From contig JAUWCU010000002.1 in the NCBI GenBank assembly GCA_030609135.1, forward strand, positions 4,798 to 68,797: 64,000 nucleotides of DNA. Reading direction: 5' to 3'. Under the pieces are notes generated by a model. It had not been told where the DNA came from, made no database searches, and worked only from the letters and a program-made list of their open reading frames with translations. Made by a program: the position numbers and the translations under genes. Numbering within the stretch: position 1 is the stretch's first letter; each line of letters opens with the position of its first letter. Of the stretch, positions 344 to 55,312 are shown piece after piece. This DNA comes from Candidatus Stahliibacteriota bacterium (GTDB lineage: Bacteria; Hydrothermota; Tepidihabitantia; SM23-42).

Positions 344-420
344 TGTAGTTGCCCAATTTATTGGGCTGTTTATTATAGTCTTTAGACTCCTATTTTATGC
401 CTGATGAATCAGGCAACTAC
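344..420. mobile_element. MITE-like hairpin repeat, copy 1 (divergent variant)
   Basis: TGTAGTTGCCCAATTTATTGGGC ... GCCTGATGAATCAGGCAACTAC: terminal inverted repeats of the same family as 9249-9341, 9663-9710, 21394-21442 and 35743-35832. Confidence 0.45.
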
Positions 421-493
421 TTTGCTTTATTACCATATGCTATAAGCCATTAGCCATATGCCGCCCAGCGCTTTTTTCAAAAGTGTTGGGCAA

Positions 494-565
494 AGCGGGA
501 GACGGGATTTGAACCCGCAACCAACGGCTTGGAAAGCCGTGACTCTACCATTGAGTTACCCCCGC
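494..565 (-). tRNA. tRNA-Gly (anticodon UCC)
   Basis: Reverse complement folds as a cloverleaf: acceptor GCGGGGG/CTCCCGC, D-arm ACTC-AATGGTA-GAGT, anticodon stem ACGGC/GCCGT with loop TTTCCAA (anticodon TCC), T-arm GCGGG-TTCAAAT-CCCGT, discriminator T. No encoded CCA. Confidence 0.85.
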
Positions 566-601: not shown

Positions 602-966
602 TAACACAAAGAGTGTATGAGAAGGCAGAAGGAGGTAAAAAGATGGCTAAGAAATAAGATTAATGACAAAATTTAAAATTTGATATTCGGCATTTGGAAT
701 TCTCTTTTAATAACCTCTCTGAGTCCTCTCATGCCTTGCTCGATAAATCGAGCGACTACAATATGTGGAGTTAGACCACTGGTGTGGGTTTGTAGTCGTT
801 TGACTTCCCACACCAAAATCTTTGGTGAGGGGACTTATCAAACAACACCCGATAAACCCCGCTCCTCTGTGAGGAACGTGGGTAAATCGCACCACTACAT
901 TTTTCGAAATTCATCCTTCAGGGGCAAACCTTTTATAGCAGTGGAGAGGACTCAGCAAACATCGTC

Positions 967-1430
967 TTGACTTCGATTTTTTTAGAATATAATCTTTTTA
1001 TGATTAAATATAAAAGAATTGAACATGATATTTATCCACTTCTTTCGAAATTAAAGGAGTCCTTATCAATAGATAATAATATAGTTTTCGCCTATATCTT
1101 CGGGTCTTATGGAATGGGCAAACCCACTCCACTCAGTGACGTTGATATTGCTGTCTATCTCTCATCCAAAGAAAACATCTGGGGCAAAAAGATGGAATTG
1201 ATTGAAAAAATTCTGATGAATTAGATATTGTGGTTCTAAATGAGGCTCCTTTGTCTCTTCAATTTCAGGTACTAAAGACTGGACGGCTACTTTTTTCTAA
1301 AAATGATAAATTGCGAATAAATTTTATCACCAGGGTATATGATATATATTGCGATGTTGAACCTCTAAGAAAGATTGCTCATGAAAATCTAATTAGGCGA
1401 ATCCACGAGGGCAAAATTGGAATTAGCTGA
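967..1430 (+). pseudogene. MNT-type minimal nucleotidyltransferase (Pol-beta superfamily), split by a frameshift in an A6 run at 1205-1210
   Basis: The first ORF carries the GS...DVDIAV nucleotidyltransferase motif (FGSYGMGKPTPLSDVDIAVYL). After stop 1222-1224 the other frame continues SDELDIVVLNEAPLSLQFQVLKTGRLLF..., the conserved C-terminal half of MNT proteins. The two halves join if one A is added or removed in the GAAAAAATT run. Confidence 0.55.
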
Positions 1431-1576
1431 AGATTGGAGATATAGAAAAGCATGGCGACCTGGATGGAAATATATTTTTGAAGACGCCAATAGTTTTGCC
1501 CTTTGATTCTTTAATCTGTAATCATTTTTATTGACATTCAAAATAAATTGGGTAAACTGTCCTGAGGAGGTAAATT

Positions 1577-8382: not shown

Positions 8383-9207
8383 ATGCCTGAACTCCCTGAA
8401 GTAGAGACTATCAAAAGAGAGTTGAAGCCCAAGATCATTAATAAAAAAATCCTGGCATGTATCGTTTTGCATAGTGATGTAATTGCATACCCAAAACCAA
8501 AGACATTTTGTAGAGCAATCATTAACGAAAGAGTGACTAATATAACGCGCAAAGCCAAATACCTACTTCTTGAGCTCACCAATGAAAAGAAAATTGTCTT
8601 CCATTTTAGGTTGTCTGGTACTATCTCATTGAGAAAACTGCACGTTAAACCTGAAGGTTTTACTAGGGTAATAATAAAGATCAACGGCTACCAGCTTTTC
8701 TTCAATGAACCAAGGGTGTTGGGTAGAATCTACCTTTTGAAAGGCAAAAAGAGATTGCCGTTTTTAAAAGGACTGTACAACCTCGGACTTGAACCGATTG
8801 CTGATGCATTCGACTTAGTCTATCTTCGCAACAAAATAAAAGGAAGAAAGGCAAAAATAAAAGCCTTGCTTCTTGACCAGAGTATCTGTGCCGGAGTCGG
8901 TAATATATATTCTGATGAAGCACTTTTCCATGCCGGAATAAGACCCTTGCGCCGTGCTAAGCGTATAACGACCAGAGAAACCGCAAAACTTGTAAGAACC
9001 CTAAAATACGTAATACAAAAAGGGATAGAGAATTACGGAACATCGGTTTCTGATTATCACCGAACCGATGGCAAAGATGGGAATTTTCAAAAACTTCTGT
9101 ATGTCTACGGCAAAGAGGATGAACCTTGTAAAGTCTGCGGGACAAAAATTGTCTTGGCGAAACTCGGCAACCGGTCCACTAGATACTGTCCTAAATGCCA
9201 GAAGTAA
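8383..9207 (+). CDS. mutM: Formamidopyrimidine-DNA glycosylase
   Basis: Starts MPELPEVE (catalytic Pro2/Glu3) and ends with the C-terminal zinc finger CKVCGTKI...RYCPKCQK. The ORF-track start at 8350 is an upstream extension running into the repeat array. Confidence 0.88.
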   Translation: MPELPEVETIKRELKPKIINKKILACIVLHSDVIAYPKPKTFCRAIINERVTNITRKAKYLLLELTNEKKIVFHFRLSGTISLRKLHVKPEGFTRVIIKINGYQLFFNEPRVLGRIYLLKGKKRLPFLKGLYNLGLEPIADAFDLVYLRNKIKGRKAKIKALLLDQSICAGVGNIYSDEALFHAGIRPLRRAKRITTRETAKLVRTLKYVIQKGIENYGTSVSDYHRTDGKDGNFQKLLYVYGKEDEPCKVCGTKIVLAKLGNRSTRYCPKCQK

Positions 9208-9210
9208 ATA

Positions 9211-9248
9211 CAAATTCCTAAATACCTAAAATCCAAAATGCCTAAAAT
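9211..9248. repeat. Mosaic repeat module (AAATACCTAAAATCCAAAATGCCTAAA)
   Basis: Reverse complement of the module present at 35895-35925 and 55215-55245. Confidence 0.45.
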
Positions 9249-9341
9249 TGTAGTCGCCCGATTTATCGGGCAATGTCTGATAAATCCCGCAATCCTATTT
9301 GTAGAATTATAATACGAAGCGGGATAAATCAGACAACTACA
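9249..9341. mobile_element. MITE-like hairpin repeat, copy 2 (full length)
   Basis: TGTAGTCGCCCGATTTATCGGGC at the left end and GTCTGATAAATCAGACAACTACA at the right end (about 23-bp imperfect terminal inverted repeats). Internal long inverted repeat GTCTGATAAATCCCGC...GCGGGATAAATCAGAC with a TATAAT-containing loop. Confidence 0.6.
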
Positions 9342-9381
9342 GTGCTATACTCTCTATTAAGTAACGGTGTATTGGAGTATG
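9342..9381. repeat. 40-nt direct repeat (copy a) flanking the MITE copies
   Basis: gtgctatactctctattaagtaacggtgtattggagtatg is repeated exactly at 9711-9750. Confidence 0.6.
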
Positions 9382-9584
9382 GGAGTAATCGTGTAAAACA
9401 GTTATTGAGTTATAAAAAACGTATCGTTCGTTTAATTCGTTATTATCGTTTAGATCGTTTCGTCCATTGTCTTCTGTTAAGATGGTTTTTTTACGAATAC
9501 GATATTCTTTGTTTCTTCGTTGATCTGGTTTTCTTGTTTCTTACTTCTCACTTCTCACTTCTTGCCTCTTATCTCGGTAGCTAC

Positions 9585-9632
9585 GGAGTGCAGTAGCTTG
9601 CTACTGCATGCAACGGCAAGCCGTTGCACTCC
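9585..9632. repeat. Nested palindrome / potential structured element
   Basis: Outer stem GGAGTGCA/TGCACTCC encloses two hairpins, CAGTAGC-TTG-GCTACTG and GCAACGGC-AA-GCCGTTGC, joined by CATGC. Confidence 0.4.
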
Positions 9633-9662
9633 ATCTACTCTCTACGCCCTACGTTCTTTATC

Positions 9663-9710
9663 GTAGTCGCCCGATTTATCGGGCAATGTCTGATAAATCA
9701 GACAACTACA
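9663..9710. mobile_element. MITE-like repeat, copy 3 (internally deleted short form)
   Basis: GTAGTCGCCCGATTTATCGGGCAATGTCTGATAAATCAGACAACTACA: same terminal inverted repeats as copy 2 with the central hairpin reduced to GTCTGATAAATCAGAC. Confidence 0.55.
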
Positions 9711-9920
9711 GTGCTATACTCTCTATTAAGTAACGGTGTATTGGAGTATGCGAGTATCAGAGGATATCGTATTCGTAAATCGTCCCGCAAAGCGGGATCC
9801 TCGATTTACCGATCATTATATGCATCAATATGAAAAATCGGGATGCATCGTACTTGTAATTTTGGATTAAAACGAATACGATTTACGAAATACGAGTACG
9901 ATTATCATCTCTGCTGTTTA

Positions 9921-9948
9921 TTGACAGCAAAAGAAAATTGACTATAGT
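9921..9948 (+). promoter_or_regulatory. sigma70-type promoter TTGACA-16-TATAGT, 7 nt upstream of the valS ATG (leaderless)
   Basis: TTGACAgcaaaagaaaattgacTATAGTtatgctaATGgatgag. Confidence 0.5.
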
Positions 9949-9955
9949 TATGCTA

Positions 9956-12589
9956 ATGGATGAGTTTCCAAACAAATATGACTCTCAGGGCATTGAAGAT
10001 CAATGGTATGAGTTCTGGCTGAACGCGAATCTTTTCACGCCTGATCCACATTCCAAAAAACCACCCTATACAATTATGATACCACTACCCAATATTACGG
10101 GTCGACTCACTCTGGGGCATACCCTGAATAACTCTATCCAGGATATCCTCATCAGATATAATAAACTGACCGGGCATGAAACCTTATGGATGGTCGGCAT
10201 GGACCATGCCGGGATCGCCACCCAAGTGGTTGTTGAGGAAAAACTACTGAAACAAGGCATTAAGAAGGAAGACTTGGGTCGGGAAAAATTCCTCCAAATT
10301 GTTTGGAAATGGAAAGAAGAATACGCCACAACAATTCGAAAACAACTGAAAAAAATGGGTTTTGCCCTTGACTGGTCGCGTGAGCAATTCACGTTATCTG
10401 AAGACTATTCAAAGAAAGTAATTAAAATATTCGTTGATTTGTACAAGAAAGGACTTATCTACCAGGGTGAATACATCATTAACTGGTGTCCGCGTTGTCT
10501 ATCTGCTTTATCCGATGAACAAGTCGAGACTGAAGAAGAACCTGGTAAGCTATTTTATATCAGGTATCCGATAATCGGTACCGAGAATTTCATCACTGTA
10601 GCAACAACCAGACCTGAAACTATGCTCGGCGATACCGGAATCTGCGTTAATCCAAAGGACCGCCGTTACAAGAAACTCATTGGGGGTACTGCCTTATTAC
10701 CGATCATGAAGCGTGCCATCCCCATTATCTGTGATGATTATGTTGATCCGGATTTCGGCACGGGTGCGTTAAAGATCACACCAGCGCATGATCCTTTTGA
10801 CTTTGATTTGGCTAAAAAACACAACCTTGAGTTTATCAATATCATGAACCCTGATGCGACACTCAATGAAAATGCCAAAGAATACAATACATTAGACCGT
10901 TATGAAGCACGCGCCAAAATCATCGTTGCTTTGGAAAAAGAGAATCTGCTTGAAAAAGTCGAAAAATATAAGGTACCCCTTGCTAAATGTCAACGCTGTC
11001 ATACCGCGATTGAACCAAGAATTAGCAAACAATGGTTCGTTCGCATGAAACCCTTGGCTAAACCCGCCTTAGAGGTAGTAAAGAATGAGACTGTGAAGCT
11101 GTATCCAAAAAGGTGGGTAAACCTCTATAATCACTGGATGGAGAACGTTCGAGATTGGTGTATTTCCAGGCAACTCTGGTGGGGACACAGGATACCGGTG
11201 TACTACTGTTCAAAATGCCATGACGCAGAAAGCACAGAAGTCAACAAAACACGACTGAATGTAGAGATAAAGAATCCAAAAGGTATGTTTGTCTCAACGA
11301 AAATGCCTAAGAAGTGTCCAGACTGCGGTTCTTGTGATATTTATCAGGACGAGGATGTTCTCGATACCTGGTTCAGTTCCTGGATCTGGCCCTTTGCAAC
11401 GCTTGGTTGGCCAAGTAAAACAAAAGATTTCAAGCGTTTCTATCCAACTCAAACTCTGGTAACAGCTTGGGATATTATTTACCTTTGGGTTGCCCGCATG
11501 ATCATGGCGGGTTTAGAATTCACTGGGCAAATACCTTTTTCCAGTGTTGTATTCCACCCCATGGTCAGGGATAAAAAGCGTAGAAAGATGTCGAAAAGTC
11601 TGGGTAATTCTCCAGATCCAATGGATTTGATCGCCAAATATGGAGCTGACGCATTGCGTTACGGGTTACAACTTATTACACCGAAGGAACAGGATGTTCT
11701 GTACTCTGAGAAAACAATCGATGTAGGTCGGAAGTTCTGTAATAAGTTGTGGAATGCAGCCCGATTAGTCTGGATGAATCACAAGAACGACAATGAAACA
11801 GCACCATCAAAACCCTCAATATATGATGCTTGGATCATTTCAGAATTCAATCAATTCATTAAGAATACTAACAACCATTTTTCAAACTTTGAACTAAATG
11901 CCATTGCTCGGGACATATACGATTTTGTCTGGCATACGTTCTGCGATTGGTATCTTGAGATTATTAAAATCTGCCCGTCAAAAGATACCCCGAAATACCT
12001 GTTAAAACAAATCATAATTATGCTCCATCCCTACATACCTTTTATCACTGAAGAAATATATCACAAATTCAATTTCGCAAAAAAGAGCATACTTCTCGAG
12101 GATTGGCCAAAGACAACAATTGTGAAAACTGATATCGTAAATGTCCAAATCACGAAACGTTTGATTGAGGAAATCCGAAATATCCGTGGTCTCTTCAATA
12201 TTAATCCAAAAGAGAAACTTCAAGCAATAATAAACACGAGAAAAGATTTCAAGGATTTTATCGAAAGAAACATCGCGGTCTTGCAGGGGCTTACCGCTCT
12301 TGAAATAATAGAATATGACAAAACCCCGGGTCAATCCGTGGCAAGTATTATTATGCCAGATGTCGAATGCTATGTCGTACTTGCCGGTATTGATATAGCA
12401 AAAGAGAAAAAACGTCTGACAAAAGAAATAACCGCACTCTCAAAGAGAATCGATGAAATTAAATATCGTTTGAATAACCCAAACTACATACGTAAAGCAA
12501 CTGTTGATGTCAAGCAACGCGAGCGAGAACGCCTCGAATGTTTTTTGAAGAAAAAAGAAGGAATTGTTAGAGCAATAGAAAAACTATGA
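9956..12589 (+). CDS. valS: Valine--tRNA ligase
   Basis: Class I aaRS motifs (PNITGRLTLGHTLN HIGH-like region; KMSKSLGN), a ValS-type editing/CP1 region and a C-terminal coiled coil. MDEFPNKYDSQGIEDQWYEFW matches the canonical ValS N-terminus. The ORF-track start (TTG 9938) lies inside the -10 box, so the ATG at 9956 is preferred; the same stop applies either way. Confidence 0.9.
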   Translation: MDEFPNKYDSQGIEDQWYEFWLNANLFTPDPHSKKPPYTIMIPLPNITGRLTLGHTLNNSIQDILIRYNKLTGHETLWMVGMDHAGIATQVVVEEKLLKQGIKKEDLGREKFLQIVWKWKEEYATTIRKQLKKMGFALDWSREQFTLSEDYSKKVIKIFVDLYKKGLIYQGEYIINWCPRCLSALSDEQVETEEEPGKLFYIRYPIIGTENFITVATTRPETMLGDTGICVNPKDRRYKKLIGGTALLPIMKRAIPIICDDYVDPDFGTGALKITPAHDPFDFDLAKKHNLEFINIMNPDATLNENAKEYNTLDRYEARAKIIVALEKENLLEKVEKYKVPLAKCQRCHTAIEPRISKQWFVRMKPLAKPALEVVKNETVKLYPKRWVNLYNHWMENVRDWCISRQLWWGHRIPVYYCSKCHDAESTEVNKTRLNVEIKNPKGMFVSTKMPKKCPDCGSCDIYQDEDVLDTWFSSWIWPFATLGWPSKTKDFKRFYPTQTLVTAWDIIYLWVARMIMAGLEFTGQIPFSSVVFHPMVRDKKRRKMSKSLGNSPDPMDLIAKYGADALRYGLQLITPKEQDVLYSEKTIDVGRKFCNKLWNAARLVWMNHKNDNETAPSKPSIYDAWIISEFNQFIKNTNNHFSNFELNAIARDIYDFVWHTFCDWYLEIIKICPSKDTPKYLLKQIIIMLHPYIPFITEEIYHKFNFAKKSILLEDWPKTTIVKTDIVNVQITKRLIEEIRNIRGLFNINPKEKLQAIINTRKDFKDFIERNIAVLQGLTALEIIEYDKTPGQSVASIIMPDVECYVVLAGIDIAKEKKRLTKEITALSKRIDEIKYRLNNPNYIRKATVDVKQRERERLECFLKKKEGIVRAIEKL

Positions 12590-21346: not shown

Positions 21347-21393
21347 GTTACTGAGGAAAAAATGAAATGGTTCTCATATCATCCACGATATGA

Positions 21394-21442
21394 TGTAGTC
21401 GCCTGATTTATCAGGCTTTGTCCAATAAATTGGACAACTACA
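21394..21442. mobile_element. MITE-like repeat, copy 4 (short form) between ybeY and corC
   Basis: TGTAGTCGCCTGATTTATCAGGC ttt GTCCAATAAATTGGACAACTACA. Confidence 0.5.
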
Positions 21443-21557
21443 ATTATTAATGCCCGATTCCCACAGTTCCTATATCCATTACCCAAAATGAGAACTATTT
21501 CATGTTCTCCGTAATAAATTGAGATTAGGAATCCAGGTGATGTAACCATGTGCTCTG

Positions 21558-35742: not shown

Positions 35743-35832
35743 TGTAGTCGCTCAATTCATTGAGCAGCCTGATAAATCCCGCAATCCTGTTTGTAGAATT
35801 ATAATACGAAGCGGGATAAATCAGGCAACTAC
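35743..35832. mobile_element. MITE-like repeat, copy 5 (full length), immediately abutting the leuC start codon
   Basis: TGTAGTCGCTCAATTCATTGAGC ... GCCTGATAAATCCCGC...GCGGGATAAATCAGGCAACTAC. The left terminal inverted repeat begins 1 nt after the leuC ATG (35740-35742). Confidence 0.6.
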
Positions 35833-35865
35833 GTTTTTGAAAATCAGATTCATCAAAAGCGTTTA

Positions 35866-36063
35866 ATCCGTCCCTTCGGTGATCTGGTTCATTTAGGTAT
35901 TTAGGCATTTTGGATTTTAGGTATTTGCTTTTTCTCCGGTACACCGTTACTCCCTTACGCCGTTTCCCCCAGTCTCCTTGTCCCCTTATCTTCAAAGATC
36001 CCCTGATCTCCTGACCCCACGTGTCTCCATGTCTCCGTTTCTCCATTTCTCTGTTTCTCCGTT
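35866..36063. repeat. Mosaic repeat modules plus five tandem octamers (GTKTCTCC / reverse-complement GGAGAMAC) ending at the ccl stop codon
   Basis: 35876-35985 share about 100 nt with 55195-55300 (gatctggttcatttagg...acaccgt.actccc.tacgccgtttccccc.gtctcc). 36020-36059 = gtgtctcc atgtctcc gtttctcc atttctct gtttctcc. Confidence 0.5.
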
Positions 36064-36828
36064 TCATTTCGTAATGTCCCGCTCCCATGGTCCATCATAG
36101 GTAACTTCTTGTTCACACATACGACGCATAGGCTTCTGCGTCGTCATTTCCTCGTACACATGTGCGATAAGACCAGCACATCGACCAATTAAAAAGAAAG
36201 CTTTACCGAGTTTCCAATCAAACCCCATATCTGATATGATCGCAGCGATTGCTCCATCGACATTTATGGGTAATGCTTTGCCCTCAGCGAATTCTTCTTT
36301 CAGCGCAAGGCTCAGCTTTATATGCTCTTTAGTGATTTTTAAATCATCAGCCATTTCATAGAGCCGTTTGGTTCGGGGGTCGTTTTTATGGAGGCGATGA
36401 CCAAACCCGGGCATGCGTCTACCCTGCTTTTTAAGAGTCTTTAGTAGTGTCTGAGCAGTTCTTTCATAATCCCACTTTTCCTCTTGCCTTTTCTTTACCC
36501 AATTCTGTAAAATGCGTGCACCATCTTCAATTGCTCCACCGTGGACATCACCAACTGCCAAAATCCCTGCAGCAACTGCACTAGGCAAAGGTACACCAGC
36601 TGAGGCAACGATGCGCGCAGCGTGTGTTGAGGGTGGAGTAACACTGTGGTCAATTGAGGAAGTAATGATTGCATCGATCATTTTCGCTTCTTTTTTATCC
36701 GGCATTCTTCCTCTTATCAGAAGAAAAAATACTGAACTAAATGGTATATTACCGATAAGGTCTTCCTGACGATAGCCGCGTGTTACAATATTATCTGGTT
36801 CAACCTTTGAAATCTTTGTTTGCCACAT
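36064..36828 (-). CDS. Citrate-synthase-like short protein, candidate citryl-CoA lyase (Ccl-like; equivalent to the AclA C-terminal domain)
   Basis: 254 aa containing the citrate synthase signature GFGHRLHKNDPR and catalytic His/Asp region but lacking the N-terminal half of a true citrate synthase. Lies directly downstream of SucC/SucD-like genes. Confidence 0.6.
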   Translation of the reverse strand: MWQTKISKVEPDNIVTRGYRQEDLIGNIPFSSVFFLLIRGRMPDKKEAKMIDAIITSSIDHSVTPPSTHAARIVASAGVPLPSAVAAGILAVGDVHGGAIEDGARILQNWVKKRQEEKWDYERTAQTLLKTLKKQGRRMPGFGHRLHKNDPRTKRLYEMADDLKITKEHIKLSLALKEEFAEGKALPINVDGAIAAIISDMGFDWKLGKAFFLIGRCAGLIAHVYEEMTTQKPMRRMCEQEVTYDGPWERDITK

Positions 36829-44003: not shown

Positions 44004-45401
44004 CTATTTCATCTTCACAACCCGCACAGGCTTGAAACTCTTGTCTTCAGGGATGAAAAAATAAACCCCGGCAGAAAGACCAAAACCGATTTTATCCCCA
44101 GAATAACTACCAACCTGTCTCCCCATGATATCATAGAGAATAAAGTGTTCCCTTTCACAACCGAGAGCGGATGCAAAAGAAACAAATGGATTAGGAACAA
44201 CTTGTAAATTTGACGTGTAAGGTCGATGCCAAGCACTATTATTATCCTCGATCCCTGTATTTCCATCCGCATCGGTTTTGACAAGATAAACCTGACGCTG
44301 ATTTCCGAATGAATACGTAAACCCGGCGATGATATACCCACCATCTGTGGTCTGCTGGACAGAGTAGCTGCCATCGTTGGAGTTCCCGCCGTAGCATCTT
44401 ATCCATTGATCATTACCAAGAGAATCGATCTTTGCTACGTAGGCACTACCAAGCCCGAGAGCATCGGTATATCCTGCAACGATATACCCTCCATCAGTAG
44501 TCTGCTGAATACAAAATCCCTGTTCATAACCCTGACCTGATATCACCCCATACCCTCTGGTCCACAAAGTATCCCCGAGAGAATCAGTCTTTATGAGATA
44601 GACATCTTCATTGTTACTCGATATATACCAGTAGTATCCCGCGATGATATATCCACCATCTGTGGTCTGCTGGACAGAGTAGCCTTCTTGTACATTCGCA
44701 ACTCCTCTTTGGTATCTCCCTGTCCAGAGTGTATCACCAAGAGAGTCGGTCTTCACCAGGTAGACATCGTTTCCTATCATCCCCGCTGCAATATAACCCC
44801 CATTCTGCGTCTGCTGAACTGAATAGCCATTGTCATCGAAATTTCTAGTCCATAGAGTATCTCCGAGAGAGTCGGTTTTGATAAGGATAAAGTTACCTTG
44901 ACGGTCACAATAATCCCACCAATAAGGACCGCCAACAATAATATACCCTCCATCAGTAGTCTGCCGAACACAATTCCCACATGAGGCACCTCCATATGTT
45001 TTAGTCCATAAAGTGTCTCCAAGAGAATCGATTTTAACAAGATAAATATGTTCATTATTTCCAAAAGAAGTAGTGTAACCGGTGATGATATAGCCTTCAT
45101 CAACGGTTTGCTGGACAGAGTAGCCCCAATCTCTCCCTGTCCCTCCATAGATCTTAGCCCAGAGCGTATCTCCGAGAGAATCGGTCTTCACCAGGTAGAT
45201 CTGGTCGCTATCTCCATAAGAACTAGTATATCCTACCACTATATAGCCACCATCTGTGGTTTGGTCTACAGAACGACCTTCCTCATAGCCCGCCCCTCCA
45301 TAGTTCCTCTCCCACATCAGTTGAGAAAAACCTGTGCCTGCAAAGACCATGACAAGCAGCACCCAGAGCACAAGCCGAAGTGGATTAAAATCTTTTTCCA
45401 T
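44004..45401 (-). CDS. SBBP beta-propeller-repeat surface protein with a T9SS-type C-terminal sorting domain
   Basis: Signal peptide, then about 9 repeats of ...GG.G.D.GYSVQQTTDGGYIIAGYT.S.G....YLVKTDSLGDTLW...; the C-terminus ...GVYFFIPEDKSFKPVRVVKMK resembles Por-secretion CTDs. Confidence 0.7.
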   Translation of the reverse strand: MEKDFNPLRLVLWVLLVMVFAGTGFSQLMWERNYGGAGYEEGRSVDQTTDGGYIVVGYTSSYGDSDQIYLVKTDSLGDTLWAKIYGGTGRDWGYSVQQTVDEGYIITGYTTSFGNNEHIYLVKIDSLGDTLWTKTYGGASCGNCVRQTTDGGYIIVGGPYWWDYCDRQGNFILIKTDSLGDTLWTRNFDDNGYSVQQTQNGGYIAAGMIGNDVYLVKTDSLGDTLWTGRYQRGVANVQEGYSVQQTTDGGYIIAGYYWYISSNNEDVYLIKTDSLGDTLWTRGYGVISGQGYEQGFCIQQTTDGGYIVAGYTDALGLGSAYVAKIDSLGNDQWIRCYGGNSNDGSYSVQQTTDGGYIIAGFTYSFGNQRQVYLVKTDADGNTGIEDNNSAWHRPYTSNLQVVPNPFVSFASALGCEREHFILYDIMGRQVGSYSGDKIGFGLSAGVYFFIPEDKSFKPVRVVKMK

Positions 45402-55109: not shown

Positions 55110-55165
55110 TCAATAAGTTATTCAGTTATCAGGTCATTATGTCACTGAGTCATTAAGTCATTTTT
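55110..55165. repeat. Tandem octamer array (RATGACYN x about 7) immediately upstream of the truA start
   Basis: Minus-sense reading aatgactt aatgactc agtgacat aatgacct gataactg aataactt attgaATG. Confidence 0.45.
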
Positions 55166-55312
55166 TACGAATACGATATTCTCCGTTTCTTCGTTGATCT
55201 GGTTCATTTAGGCATTTTGGATTTTAAGTATTTACTTTTTCTCCAATACACCGTCACTCCCCTACGCCGTTTCCCCCGGTCTCCGTGTCTCCAGCAAAGC
55301 GTGTTCATTCCG
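55166..55312. repeat. Mosaic repeat modules (TTTACGAATACGATATTCT... and CATTTAGGCATTTTGGATTTTAAGTATTT...CCGTTTCCCCCGGTCTCC)
   Basis: 55161-55205 matches 9487-9535; 55195-55300 matches 35876-35985; a reverse-complement partial copy lies at 9211-9248. Confidence 0.5.

What the first reader, a model, noticed from the sequence alone, without database searches (positions are those of the whole stretch)
9249..9341. A MITE-like hairpin element family (about 23-bp TIRs TGTAGTYGYCYGATTTATCRGRC) in 5 copies, long and short forms
Five loci (344-420, 9249-9341, 9663-9710, 21394-21442, 35743-35832) share the same imperfect terminal inverted repeats.
- Long forms (93 and 90 bp) carry an internal 16-bp inverted repeat GYCTGATAAATCCCGC...GCGGGATAAATCAGRC around a TATAAT-containing loop.
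- Short forms (about 48 bp) retain only the TIR hairpins.
- Copies are strictly intergenic: one splits the conserved ybeY-corC junction, two lie between mutM and valS, and one begins 1 nt from the leuC ATG.
- The long form contains TTGCCT-16-TATTAT on one strand, so it could act as a portable promoter.
This looks like a non-autonomous transposon or structured repeat family with no recognisable annotation.
Basis: seen in the sequence. Interest (0 to 1): 0.6.

Follow-up and report, generated by a model that had tools for sequence, protein, structure and literature searches.

The report
REP doublets (REPINs) of a RAYT transposase
The five "MITE-like" hairpin elements are real, but they are REPINs: pairs of inverted GTAG-tagged palindromes served by a single-gene tyrosine transposase (RAYT) encoded elsewhere. 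This is a known kind of bacterial repeat, seen here in an uncultured WOR-3 bacterium, and its 22-base recognition hairpin is shared across about 19 phylum-level groups.

Summary
**Observation:** confirmed. The window holds five doublets, one lone unit and one diverged doublet. That is 11 arm matches where shuffles give 0.

**Anatomy:** each arm is T-GTAG, a 2-nt linker, a 7-bp stem (G-Y-Y-Y-R-A-T) and a TY loop. The stems covary. This is a GTAG-tagged REP, and the doublets are head-to-head REP dimers, i.e. REPINs. They are not classical TIR-MITEs, because there is no target-site duplication.

**Cognate enzyme:**
- About 140-aa Y1/HUH proteins are flanked by the same motif. Their best matches are the NCBIfam REP-associated tyrosine transposase model and E. 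coli TnpA-REP (4ER8).
- The flanking holds in 3 genomes found through the DNA motif.
- It also holds in 54 (upstream) and 62 (downstream) of 80 metagenome loci found through the protein alone. Motif density is 10.2/kb next to the gene and 0.21/kb away from it.
- One such locus (L158) carries the window's long form at 90% identity.
- No RAYT lies in the window.

**History in close relatives:** one lineage-specific gain (corC-ybeY), and one long form kept orthologously upstream of leuC.

**Other claims:** the promoter idea is not supported.

**Unexpected extras:**
- The same REP consensus occurs under about 19 phylum-level labels.
- 37 of 80 RAYT genes carry the REP in frame inside their own ORF. 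The perfect hairpins among them come in compensated variants.

**Verdict:** new member of a known kind; moderate interest.

The parts
344..421 (.). REPIN copy 1 (78 nt). Left REP is TGTAGTT-GCCCAAT-TT-ATTGGGC. A 31-nt spacer with a small hairpin follows. Right REP is GCCTGAT-GA-ATCAGGC-AACTACT. It lies between the dtd-like gene and a tRNA gene (494-565, minus strand).
738..760 (-). Lone REP unit (TGTAGTC-GCTCGAT-TT-ATCGAGC). It sits 30 nt from the next element, with the two GTAG ends facing each other.
791..899 (.). Diverged doublet with TGTAGTC...ACTACA ends. Both hairpins are extended by extra inner stems, which is the same design as the long form but with different inner sequence.
   Evidence: z = -4.9; no other copy in the held data
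9249..9341 (.). Long-form REPIN copy 2 (93 nt). Left REP is 9249-9271. The extended right hairpin runs 9275-9290 and 9319-9334 around a 28-nt loop. The tail AACTACA is 9335-9341. The 8-nt direct repeat GATAAATC at 9279-9286 and 9323-9330 brackets the 44-nt difference from the short form.
   Evidence: (D10); 90% identical over 93 nt to the REPIN beside the RAYT gene in L158
9662..9710 (.). Short-form REPIN copy 3 (49 nt). It is 98% identical to copy 2 apart from the 44-nt indel.
   Evidence: (D4, D8)
9342..9387 (+). A 46-nt flank that is duplicated together with the REPIN (second copy at 9711-9756). This marks copies 2 and 3 as a local duplication of REPIN plus flank.
   Evidence: (D8)
21394..21442 (.). 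Short-form REPIN copy 4 (49 nt), between corC and ybeY.
21351..21514 (.). A 164-nt insertion specific to this lineage, containing copy 4. It also holds 43 and 72 nt of unique flank with their own 23-nt inverted repeat (21355-21377 and 21488-21510). It is absent from the 96% and 84% relatives.
35743..35833 (.). Long-form REPIN copy 5 (91 nt), lying 9 nt upstream of the probable leuC start. An orthologous copy is present in the relative L230 (2400-2490).
   Evidence: (D10)

Best explanation
**What it is.** The elements are REPINs, meaning doublets of repetitive extragenic palindromes.
- Each unit is T-GTAG, a 2-nt linker (TY), a 7-bp stem (G-Y-Y-Y-R-A-T) and a 2-nt TY loop.
- Two units face each other with their GTAG ends outward, separated by a short spacer.

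**How it most likely works.**
- The RAYT is probably encoded elsewhere in the genome, itself flanked by the same REPs. This is the expected arrangement; neither presence nor copy number was tested for this genome.
- By analogy with E. coli TnpA-REP, the enzyme binds the GTAG tag and the foot of the hairpin on single-stranded DNA. It then cleaves and transfers strands, so doublets are occasionally copied to new intergenic sites without target-site duplications.
- Because recognition is at the hairpin foot, the hairpin tip is free to grow. That would explain the long form.

**Shown here.**
- The family, its anatomy and the hairpin covariation.
- The statistical and physical linkage of this REP to one RAYT clade, including the long form.
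- HUH and tyrosine motifs, and the homology to TnpA-REP.
- Both gain and orthologous persistence among close relatives.

**Inferred.**
- The catalysis and the single-stranded DNA substrate.
- The cut sites.
- That this particular genome still encodes the RAYT.
For: **Anatomy.**
- GTAG tag, 7-bp stem and TY loop in every arm.
- As single-stranded DNA the doublets fold as two local hairpins closed by a TGTAGT/ACTACA stem, with z-scores of -5.7 to -8.5.

**Covariation.**
- A structure-blind pattern recovers at least 10 perfectly compensated stem types: GCCTGAT 86, GCCCAAT 83, GCCCGAT 36, GCCCCAT 23, GCTCGAT 22 and others.
- On alignment A2, 72 cells have changes on both sides of a pair, against 23.4 +/- 3.9 in shuffles (0 of 500 shuffles reach the observed value). 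Structures slid by 1-3 columns pair in only 23-39% of cells, against 94% for the real structure.

**RAYT linkage.**
- Among ORFs next to motif hits, the only recurrent small family is a Y1_Tnp protein.
- It is directly flanked by inverted REPs in Poribacteria, Anaerolineae and Doudnabacteria.
- In 80 RAYT loci fetched through the protein alone, the motif lies within 200 nt upstream in 54, downstream in 62 and on both sides in 48.
- Motif density is 10.2/kb next to the gene and 0.21/kb more than 500 nt away.

**Protein identity.**
- NCBIfam REP_Tyr_transpos scores 67-76 bits (E 1e-18 to 3e-21), against 18-32 bits for the IS200 model.
- The best solved structure is 4ER8, TnpA-REP, at E 1.3e-13. 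IS200/IS605 TnpA structures score 3.5e-4 or worse.
- The HUH motif and WQPNYYEH are invariant.

**Link to this window.**
- The RAYT in L158 is bordered by a long-form REPIN that is 90% identical over 93 nt to window 9249-9341.
- That RAYT is 70% identical to a RAYT labelled WOR-3.
- The window itself is from WOR-3.

**Dynamics among relatives.**
- The corC-ybeY insertion is absent from the 96% and 84% relatives.
- The long form upstream of leuC is orthologous in L230.

**Other.**
- No consistent target-site duplication.
- The mechanistic analogy comes from PMC3479197; the class definitions come from PMC3733652 and PMC3116915.
Against: - There is no RAYT gene in the 64-kb window (tblastn), and the rest of the genome could not be read.
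- The NCBIfam scores fall just below the curated cut-off of 80 bits.
- The one clean gain (164 nt at corC-ybeY) does not begin and end at the REPIN boundaries. The unit that moved is therefore not shown to be the doublet itself.
- Copies 2 and 3 are a local duplication, not two transpositions.
- No excision or insertion junction and no biochemistry are available for this clade.
Confidence: 0.82

Rival explanations
1. **Relics.** These are REPINs by origin, but this genome has lost its RAYT. The copies would then be immobile remnants that persist or change only by ordinary duplication and deletion.
For: - No RAYT lies in the window.
- Copies 2 and 3 arose by local duplication together with their flank.
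- The single gain is larger than the doublet.
- A lone unit and a diverged doublet at 738-899 look decayed.
- The 96% relatives have no REP in 18-22 kb of syntenic DNA.
Against: - Hairpins are intact in all five doublets.
- The two long forms, 26 kb apart, are 97% identical.
- The orthologous long form in L230 is better conserved than its flanks.
- RAYTs of this clade exist in WOR-3.
Confidence: 0.2
2. **Host-function elements.** The hairpins would be maintained mainly because they serve the host as RNA or DNA structures, for example as mRNA 3'-end stabilisers, attenuators, protein-binding sites or promoters. RAYT-mediated copying would be secondary or absent.
For: - All copies lie between co-directional genes, so they are probably transcribed.
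- Copy 5 sits 9 nt upstream of the probable leuC start and is conserved in L230.
- Some G-T pairs occur in the stems.
- E. coli REPs have such roles (background knowledge; PMC3733652).
Against: - The scan finds no terminator-like sites. The promoter-like matches score only 9 of 12 and are not clearly above shuffles.
- Rfam finds nothing even at E up to 1.
- The relatives do without the elements at the same gene junctions.
- The roughly 50-fold enrichment around RAYT genes is not explained by a host function.
Confidence: 0.1
3. **Derivatives of an autonomous insertion sequence.** The Y1 gene and its flanking hairpins would form a jumping IS200/IS605-type insertion sequence. The doublets would then be its deletion derivatives (PATE-like MITEs) rather than a domesticated RAYT/REPIN system.
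For: - The superfamily is the same and the gene is flanked by hairpins.
- The wide distribution across phyla suggests horizontal spread.
Against: - The protein matches TnpA-REP far better than IS200/IS605 TnpA.
- In six loci the gene sits in the same chromosomal context, after an MBL-fold gene and a MoxR ATPase gene, with 70-77% DNA identity in the neighbouring genes.
- No relatives are found among 2.9 million viral contigs.
- Doublets far outnumber genes.
Confidence: 0.08
4. **Classical TIR-MITE.** The element would be mobilised by a DDE transposase such as IS630/Tc1.
For: Its size (49-93 nt) and its terminal inverted symmetry.
Against: - Flanking direct repeats occur at or near shuffle frequency in 123 distinct doublets.
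- The arms are self-palindromic and usually differ from each other in their stems.
- No DDE transposase recurs next to the motif.
Confidence: 0.02

Closest known systems
GTAG-tagged REP superfamily, head-to-head dimers (Di Nocera et al. 2013, PMC3733652)
   Same: - An unpaired GTAG tag at one end.
- A 6-13-bp stem with complementary sub-variants.
- A 2-3-nt loop matching the TY consensus.
- A dinucleotide between tag and stem, as in families GTAG-1 and GTAG-2.
- Dimers with the GTAG ends outside.
- Long-loop variants with CCGC/GCGG termini.
- RAYT genes flanked by the repeats.
   Different: - The stem sequence G-Y-Y-Y-R-A-T with an A/T-rich top was not found in any searchable paper. The consensus tables of the 24 published families are in figures and could not be read.
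- The hosts are uncultured phyla (WOR-3, Poribacteria, Zixibacteria, CPR and others) rather than mainly Proteobacteria.
REPIN/RAYT systems of Pseudomonas fluorescens SBW25 and Enterobacteria (Bertels & Rainey 2011, PMC3116915; Bertels et al. 2017, PMC5581495)
   Same: - Inverted REP doublets with a short spacer.
- The RAYT gene is flanked by the same REPs.
- The RAYT sits in a conserved chromosomal context.
- Tandem duplicates include flanking DNA.
- Long orthologous persistence.
   Different: - Here the two arms usually carry different stems. The doublet therefore folds as two hairpins plus a 6-bp closing stem, not as one long hairpin.
- The same REP consensus spans about 19 phylum-level groups, whereas published systems are described as lineage-specific and vertically inherited (10.1101/2021.07.10.451892).
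E. coli REP/BIME and TnpA-REP (PDB 4ER8; Messing et al. 2012, PMC3479197)
   Same: - It is the best structural relative of the associated protein (E 1.3e-13).
- The HUH motif, the catalytic tyrosine and the GTAG tag 5' of the hairpin foot are shared.
- REPs sit in mosaics with other intergenic repeats.
   Different: - The protein here is about 140 aa, against 165 aa, and lacks most of the inhibitory C-terminal tail.
- The hairpins are perfect and short rather than imperfect and long.
- The cleavage site is unknown here.
IS200/IS605 insertion sequences and their palindrome-associated MITEs
   Same: - The same HUH/Y1 superfamily.
- Subterminal hairpins.
- No target-site duplication.
   Different: - The gene here is not obviously mobile.
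- HMM and PDB matches favour TnpA-REP.
- The two ends are not distinct left-end and right-end structures of an insertion sequence.
Rickettsia palindromic elements (in-frame insertions into genes; from background knowledge)
   Same: In several RAYT genes, REP or REPIN sequence is read through in frame as extra peptide.
   Different: - Only the RAYT gene itself was seen to carry them here.
- All window copies are intergenic.

Membership tests
GTAG-tagged REP superfamily | A conserved, unpaired GTAG tetranucleotide at one end of the palindrome | tested here: met
   GTAG is present in 10 of the 11 window arms. T precedes it in 70% of 322 doublet ends.
GTAG-tagged REP superfamily | A short stem-loop (6-13-bp stem, 2-3-nt loop) with complementary stem sub-variants | tested here: met
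   The stem is 7 bp and the loop is TT or TC. At least 10 compensated stem types exist. The covariation score is 0.412 against 0.185 in shuffles, with 0 of 500 shuffles reaching it.
GTAG-tagged REP superfamily | High copy number, in extragenic positions | tested here: inconclusive
   Seven elements in 64 kb are all intergenic. The whole-genome count cannot be obtained because the genome could not be fetched.
REPIN | Two REPs in inverted orientation with a short spacer, as the predominant arrangement | tested here: met
   The window holds 5 doublets and 1 lone unit. Across all loci, 125 distinct head-to-head doublets were found, with a modal length of 52-53 nt. The +/- configuration occurs 178 times, against 53-70 for the other configurations; the 178 includes about 25 self-overlap artefacts.
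REPIN | Predicted to form a hairpin as single-stranded DNA | tested here: met
   Folding energies are -12.9 to -23.6 kcal/mol with z-scores of -5.7 to -8.5. The shape is a three-way junction, not one long hairpin.
REPIN | A cognate RAYT gene flanked by the same REPs | tested here: met
   Met in related genomes: 3 genome loci and 48-62 of 80 metagenome loci, including the long form in L158. For this genome itself it is not testable, and there is none in the window.
REPIN | Evidence that the doublet itself is the unit that moves | tested here: inconclusive
   The gain at corC-ybeY is 164 nt, larger than the 49-nt doublet. The other loci are too rearranged to define empty sites.
RAYT (REP-associated tyrosine transposase), for the linked protein | An HUH motif and a catalytic tyrosine, and closer to TnpA-REP than to IS200/IS605 TnpA | tested here: met
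   The HxH motif and WQPNYYEH are invariant. PDB 4ER8 scores E 1.3e-13, against 3.5e-4 or worse for IS TnpAs.
RAYT (REP-associated tyrosine transposase), for the linked protein | Passes the curated NCBIfam equivalog threshold (NF047646, 80 bits) | tested here: not met
   Scores are 67.4-75.7 bits, just under the cut-off but far above the IS200 model at 18-32 bits. I read this as a divergent clade of the family, not as an equivalog of the curated set.
RAYT (REP-associated tyrosine transposase), for the linked protein | Single copy, at a fixed chromosomal position, not on mobile replicons | tested here: inconclusive
   Six loci share the context MBL-fold gene, MoxR gene, RAYT. No relatives occur in viral contigs. 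Copy number per genome was not testable.
TIR-MITE of a DDE transposon (IS630/Tc1 and the like) | Regular target-site duplications flanking the element | tested here: not met
   Direct repeats of 2-8 nt occur at or near shuffle frequency in 123 doublets. None flanks the five window copies.
Known structured RNA families (Rfam 15) | A match to any covariance model | tested here: not met
   Only a tRNA matches at gathering thresholds. Nothing matches at E up to 1 in 9200-9780.

The most novel reading that the evidence does not exclude
One REP-RAYT lineage keeps an almost frozen 22-nt recognition hairpin (GTAG-TY-GYYYRAT-TY-ATYRRRC) across about 19 phylum-level groups, including CPR/Patescibacteria.

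About half of its RAYT genes also carry that same REP in frame inside their own ORF. It sits at codon 40 and reads VVAQFIE. Where the hairpin is perfect it comes in compensated variants, two of which cost amino-acid changes (E to G, Q to R).

This would mean two things:
- The transposase recognises its own gene. That could serve autoregulation or self-limitation, or the gene could be the birthplace of the REP.
- REPIN-RAYT systems are either far older or far more transferable between phyla than the current picture of lineage-specific, vertically inherited systems allows.
Probability: 0.35. Interest if true: 0.65.

Novelty: new member of a known kind. Interest (0 to 1): 0.42.

Why it matters
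**For annotation.** These intergenic hairpins in WOR-3 and many other uncultured lineages should be labelled REP/REPIN, not unknown MITEs or candidate small RNAs. They may also help explain fragmented assemblies: one relative's contig ends 46 nt upstream of leuC, where the window has a REPIN.

**For biology.** REPIN-RAYT systems have been studied almost only in Proteobacteria and are described as lineage-specific and vertically inherited. Here a single, easily searched REP consensus is tied to one RAYT clade across very distant phyla, and some relatives are close enough to show both gain and persistence. That gives a concrete data set for asking how old these systems are, whether they cross phylum boundaries, and what constrains the hairpin.

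**For mechanism.** The REP embedded in the RAYT reading frame offers a direct experiment on self-recognition.

Tried and rejected
- **Finding the source genome.** Exact-protein look-ups for ValS, LeuC, CorC and even the 100%-identical hit P0241 returned nothing. The rest of the genome, and any RAYT in it, could not be read. One search shows only that the proteins come from an 81.8-kb NCBI contig.
- **Guilt by association.** Clustering 408 ORFs that lie next to motif hits gave no recurrent family except the Y1 transposase. The other clusters (short-chain dehydrogenases, PhyH, PD40 repeats, AAA/DUF4143) are host genes.
- **Rfam.** Nothing was found at gathering thresholds or at E up to 1.
- **Promoter and terminator scans.** No terminator-like sites were found.
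- **Target-site duplications.** None is consistent across doublets.
- **Phage carriage.** 22 IMG/VR contigs hold the motif, but no RAYT relative was found among them. There is no support for a viral vehicle.
- **Flanks of the 164-nt corC-ybeY insertion.** Neither the unique flanks nor their 23-nt inverted repeat have another copy in the window or in any held locus. I could not tell whether this is a second element carrying a REPIN or a REPIN moved together with donor flank.
- **The long form as a separately mobile insert.**
  - Considered because the 44-nt piece is bracketed by the 8-nt direct repeat GATAAATC and sits inside two different outer stems.
  - Not adopted, because the whole long-form doublet recurs next to a RAYT (L158) and orthologously in L230.
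  - The extended hairpin also occurs alone in L205.
  - A hairpin-tip extension, or a deletion between the direct repeats, explains the data equally well.
- **Literature search for the motif.** Only chance primer matches were found.
Full report
**1.

- The arm consensus, with up to 3 mismatches, hits 11 times in the window. It hits 0 times in 100 dinucleotide-preserving shuffles.
- Those 11 hits are the ten arms of five doublets plus a lone arm at 738-760 on the minus strand.
- A structure-only scan (GTAG, 0-4 nt, then a perfect stem of 6-9 bp) finds 10 sites, against a shuffle mean of 2.7. Nine of the ten are this family and one is the tRNA.
- A further diverged doublet with extended hairpins lies at 791-899.

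The two long forms share a 64-nt core at 97% identity (D10). Copies 2 and 3 are 98% identical except for a 44-nt indel bracketed by the 8-nt direct repeat GATAAATC. They also share 46 nt of right flank, so one of them is a local duplicate (D4/D8).

Pfam confirms mutM, valS, corC, ybeY and leuC as the neighbouring genes.

**2. Anatomy.**

Each arm reads T-GTAG, a 2-nt linker (TC or TT), a 7-bp stem G-Y-Y-Y-R-A-T, a TT or TC loop, and then the complementary half-stem.
- The arms are not merely inverted copies of each other. Each arm is a hairpin in its own right.
- In about 90% of doublets the left and right stems differ. The commonest pairing is GCCCAAT with GCCTGAT.
- Folded as single-stranded DNA, the doublets form two local hairpins closed by a 6-bp TGTAGT/ACTACA stem. 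Z-scores are -5.7 to -8.5.
- In the long form the right hairpin continues past an AA/AA mismatch into a second 7-bp stem and a 28-nt loop.

**3. The hairpin is under constraint.**

I collected units with a pattern that fixes only GTAG, the closing G...C and the AT/AT top. The four free pairs then covary.
- The abundant stems are all perfectly complementary, and at least ten types exist.
- On 71 distinct units, 94.2% of cells pair. In structures slid by 1-3 columns only 23-39% pair.
- 72 cells show changes on both sides of a pair, against 23.4 +/- 3.9 in shuffles; 0 of 500 shuffles reach the observed value.

**4. What it is: a REP family tied to a RAYT clade.**

Among ORFs within 400 nt of the hits, the only recurrent small family was a roughly 140-aa protein.
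- It matches Pfam Y1_Tnp.
- Its best NCBIfam match is REP_Tyr_transpos at 67-76 bits. That is just under the 80-bit cut-off. The IS200 model gives only 18-32 bits.
- In a Poribacteria chromosome, an Anaerolineae contig and a Doudnabacteria contig, the gene is bracketed by inverted copies of the motif.
- The three proteins are about 50% identical to each other and keep the HUH motif and WQPNYYEH.
- The nearest solved structure is E. coli TnpA-REP, 4ER8, at E 1.3e-13. IS200/IS605 transposases score 3.5e-4 or worse.

*Independent test.* I fetched 80 loci from metagenomes through the protein alone.
- The REP motif lies within 200 nt upstream in 54 of them, downstream in 62 and on both sides in 48.
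- Its density is 10.2/kb beside the gene and 0.21/kb more than 500 nt away.
- Where the RAYT is most divergent, the flanking REP changes with it: 6-bp GCCGAT stems, AGCTGAT or GGCAGAGC. That is what co-evolution predicts.
- A homology search found 4339 relatives at E of 1e-10 or better. Several are named "REP element-mobilizing transposase RayT" by JGI.

**5. Link to this window.**

The window comes from candidate division WOR-3. The named ValS and LeuC hits are WOR-3, and unnamed relatives reach 96% identity.

There is no RAYT in the window, and the rest of the genome could not be fetched.

One metagenome RAYT locus, L158, ties the window's variant to a RAYT.
- It has a long-form REPIN directly upstream that is 90% identical over 93 nt to window 9249-9341 and 87% identical to copy 5.
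- It has a second long-form hairpin downstream.
- Its RAYT is 70% identical to a UniRef entry labelled WOR-3.

The long form is therefore a genuine REPIN subtype of a RAYT in a related organism.

In L158 and five other loci the RAYT follows the same MBL-fold and MoxR-ATPase genes, with 70-77% DNA identity in those neighbours. That points to a fixed chromosomal gene rather than a jumping insertion sequence.

**6. History in close relatives.**

Syntenic contigs from relatives with 96%, 91%, 84% and 80% ValS identity were fetched.

- *corC-ybeY.* The gap is 53 nt in the 96% relatives and 62 nt in the 84% relative, but 211 nt here.
  - The window has a 164-nt insertion (21351-21514) containing copy 4.
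  - Since both a sister and an outgroup lack it, a gain in this lineage is the simplest reading.
  - The insertion is larger than the doublet and has its own 23-nt inverted repeat, found nowhere else. The unit that moved is therefore unresolved.
- *mutM-valS.* The spacer is 149-318 nt in relatives and about 750 nt here.
  - The 84% relative keeps a lone REP at the same place after the same CCTAAAAT-type repeats.
  - The 80% relative keeps the extended hairpin alone.
- *leuC.* A relative with 89% LeuC identity has the same long-form REPIN at the same position. It differs at very few bases, while the adjoining spacer is about 86% identical. Relatives at 94% and 84% lack it.

The picture is slow turnover with long persistence, as described for REPINs (PMC3116915; 10.1101/2021.07.10.451892).

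**7. Mechanism.**

*Established for E. coli TnpA-REP (PMC3479197).*
- The monomeric enzyme binds the 5' GTAG and the bottom of the hairpin on single-stranded DNA.
- GTAG is essential for binding and for cleavage.
- Cuts fall at CT dinucleotides, and strand transfer occurs in vitro.

*Inferred here.*
- The same happens with this clade.
- Hairpin tips can be extended without loss of recognition, because contacts are at the hairpin foot. That would explain the long form and the element at 791-899.
- The closing stem of the doublet pairs GTAG with the CTAC at the far end. This puts a CT at a fixed position opposite the tag, which makes it a candidate cut site.
- No target-site duplications are seen, as expected for this superfamily.

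**8. Rivals.**

- A DDE-type TIR-MITE is excluded by the lack of duplications, by the self-palindromic and mutually different arms, and by the absence of any recurrent DDE gene.
- An autonomous IS200/IS605 element is unlikely, given the TnpA-REP affinity and the fixed gene context.
- A mainly host-serving RNA or DNA role is not excluded, but nothing supports it. There is no Rfam match, no terminator-like site and only weak promoter-like matches.
- The copies may be relics in a genome that has lost its RAYT. This remains open at about 0.2.

**9. Comparison with what is known.**

The element meets the defining features of the GTAG-REP superfamily and of REPINs (PMC3733652, PMC3116915).

It differs in three respects.
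- Its stem sequence was not found in the searchable literature.
- The two arms of a doublet are heterologous.
- The same consensus occurs under about 19 phylum-level labels: Poribacteria, Nitrospirae, Omnitrophota, Elusimicrobia, Chloroflexi, Zixibacteria, Ignavibacteria, Chlamydiae, Planctomycetes, CPR and others. Published systems are described as lineage-specific.

Some MAG labels may be wrong, but complete Poribacteria chromosomes and contigs of very different composition are among the hits.

**10. An unplanned finding.**

*A REP inside the RAYT reading frame.* In 37 of the 80 RAYT genes, a REP-like 22-mer sits in frame 0 inside the ORF, in 35 of them at nucleotide 117. It reads GTAGTTGCTCAATTTATTGAGC, which encodes VVAQFIE.
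- By my tally of the listing, about 20 keep a perfect 7-bp hairpin.
- Among those loci the perfect hairpins come in three compensated versions: GCTCAAT; GCCCAAT, which changes E to G; and GCTCGAT, which changes Q to R.
- A fourth version is inferred from the protein sequence alone: VVARFIG in P0093 would be encoded by GCCCGAT.

*REP sequence read through as protein.*
- Three ORFs carry 37-45-aa in-frame insertions containing REP-like sequence. One example is the second in-frame copy of VVAQFIE in L171.
- The L171 insert also holds the peptide PDKSGNY, which is what CCTGATAAATCAGGCAACTAC would encode. The DNA at that spot was not read.
- The same peptide sits in the C-terminal tails of P0093 and P0101, where the downstream REP overlaps the 3' end of the ORF.

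I found no description of this in the papers read. It suggests self-recognition by the enzyme, or repeated conversion by genomic REPs.

**11. Verdict.**

- The finding is real.
- It is a new member of a known kind (REPIN/RAYT).
- Interest is moderate. It is raised by the cross-phylum conservation and by the REP embedded in the RAYT gene.

Noticed in passing
L158:2618-2639; same offset (nt 117 of the ORF) in L123, L127, L129, L130, L143, L145, L146, L148, L156, L168, L173-L175, L183, L187, L191, L193, L195 and others: The RAYT genes of this clade carry their own REP in frame inside the coding sequence. It reads GTAGTTGCTCAATTTATTGAGC, which encodes VVAQFIE. 37 of 80 loci have it. About 20 of these keep a perfect hairpin, in three compensated variants, two of which cost amino-acid changes (E to G, Q to R).
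   Followed up: partly
L171:2501-3013, L174:2501-3079, L181:2501-3016 (and L182): These RAYT ORFs are lengthened by 37-45-aa in-frame insertions containing REP-like sequence, such as a second VVAQFIE in L171. The L171 insert also holds the peptide PDKSGNY, which is what CCTGATAAATCAGGCAACTAC would encode. This is reminiscent of the in-frame palindromic elements of Rickettsia.
   Followed up: partly
L158:339-2917; also L170, L193, L195, L129, L123: The RAYT sits in a conserved context, after an MBL-fold gene and a MoxR-type AAA ATPase gene, with 70-77% DNA identity across six metagenome loci. This suggests a fixed, vertically kept chromosomal position within this sub-clade.
   Followed up: partly
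window 9216-9248, 35891-35926, 55206-55233; L204:1395-1432, L206:9826-9863, L230:2270-2345: AT-rich, roughly 8-nt tandem motifs (CCTAAAAT, ACCTAAAT, CCAAAAT) recur in the same spacers as the REPs. They abut the left REP both in the window and in L206. In L204 they occupy the site where the window has copy 1. Together with the REPs they form BIME-like mosaics.
   Followed up: partly
window 35941-36065, 55180-55205, 9487-9530, 55161-55204: Further intergenic repeat families occur. One is an 8-nt tandem (TCTCCGTT, TCTCCATT). Another is a 44-nt unit (TTTTTTACGAATACGATATTC...GATCTGGTT) shared at 95% identity between the mutM-valS spacer and 55161-55204.
   Followed up: no
window 21355-21377 and 21488-21510: A 23-nt inverted repeat (GGARAAMATGAAATRGTTCTCAT) bounds the 164-nt lineage-specific insertion that carries REPIN copy 4. 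It has no other copy in the window or in any held locus. It may be a second small element, or donor flank moved with the REPIN.
   Followed up: partly
window 9249-9341, 9662-9710, 21394-21442, 35743-35833: In four of the five doublets the GTAG-TC/GC... arm is on the left of the + strand and the GTAG-TT arm is on the right. This holds whether the neighbouring genes are on the + or the - strand. It hints at a replication-strand bias rather than a transcription bias, but the sample is too small to test.
   Followed up: no
window 899-1432 compared with L200:451-1978: The nucleotidyltransferase (MNT) gene next to the REP cluster is truncated in the window (85-aa ORF at 967-1224). Its HepT/HEPN partner and a His_Phos_1 gene, both present in the 96% relative, are missing. 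The stretch between the tRNA gene and the SIMPL gene is a variable island.
   Followed up: no
window 9921-9956: The real valS start is probably at 9956, giving 877 aa as in all relatives, and not the TTG at 9938. An 11-of-12 promoter-like site (TTGACA-16-TATAGT) lies at 9921-9948 and is conserved in L200 and L204.
   Followed up: partly
window 44004-45401 (- strand): Seven repeats of about 150 nt (50 aa) lie inside a 465-aa ORF. This is probably a beta-propeller-type repeat protein.
   Followed up: no
L229:1-46: The contig of a 94% LeuC relative ends 46 nt upstream of leuC, where the window has a REPIN and other repeats. Such repeats may fragment MAG assemblies at these junctions.
   Followed up: no
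L207-L228 (IMG/VR contigs): 22 contigs classed as viral carry the REP motif, some as doublets. No RAYT relative was found among the 2.9 million viral contigs. These may be host fragments or prophage borders.
   Followed up: no
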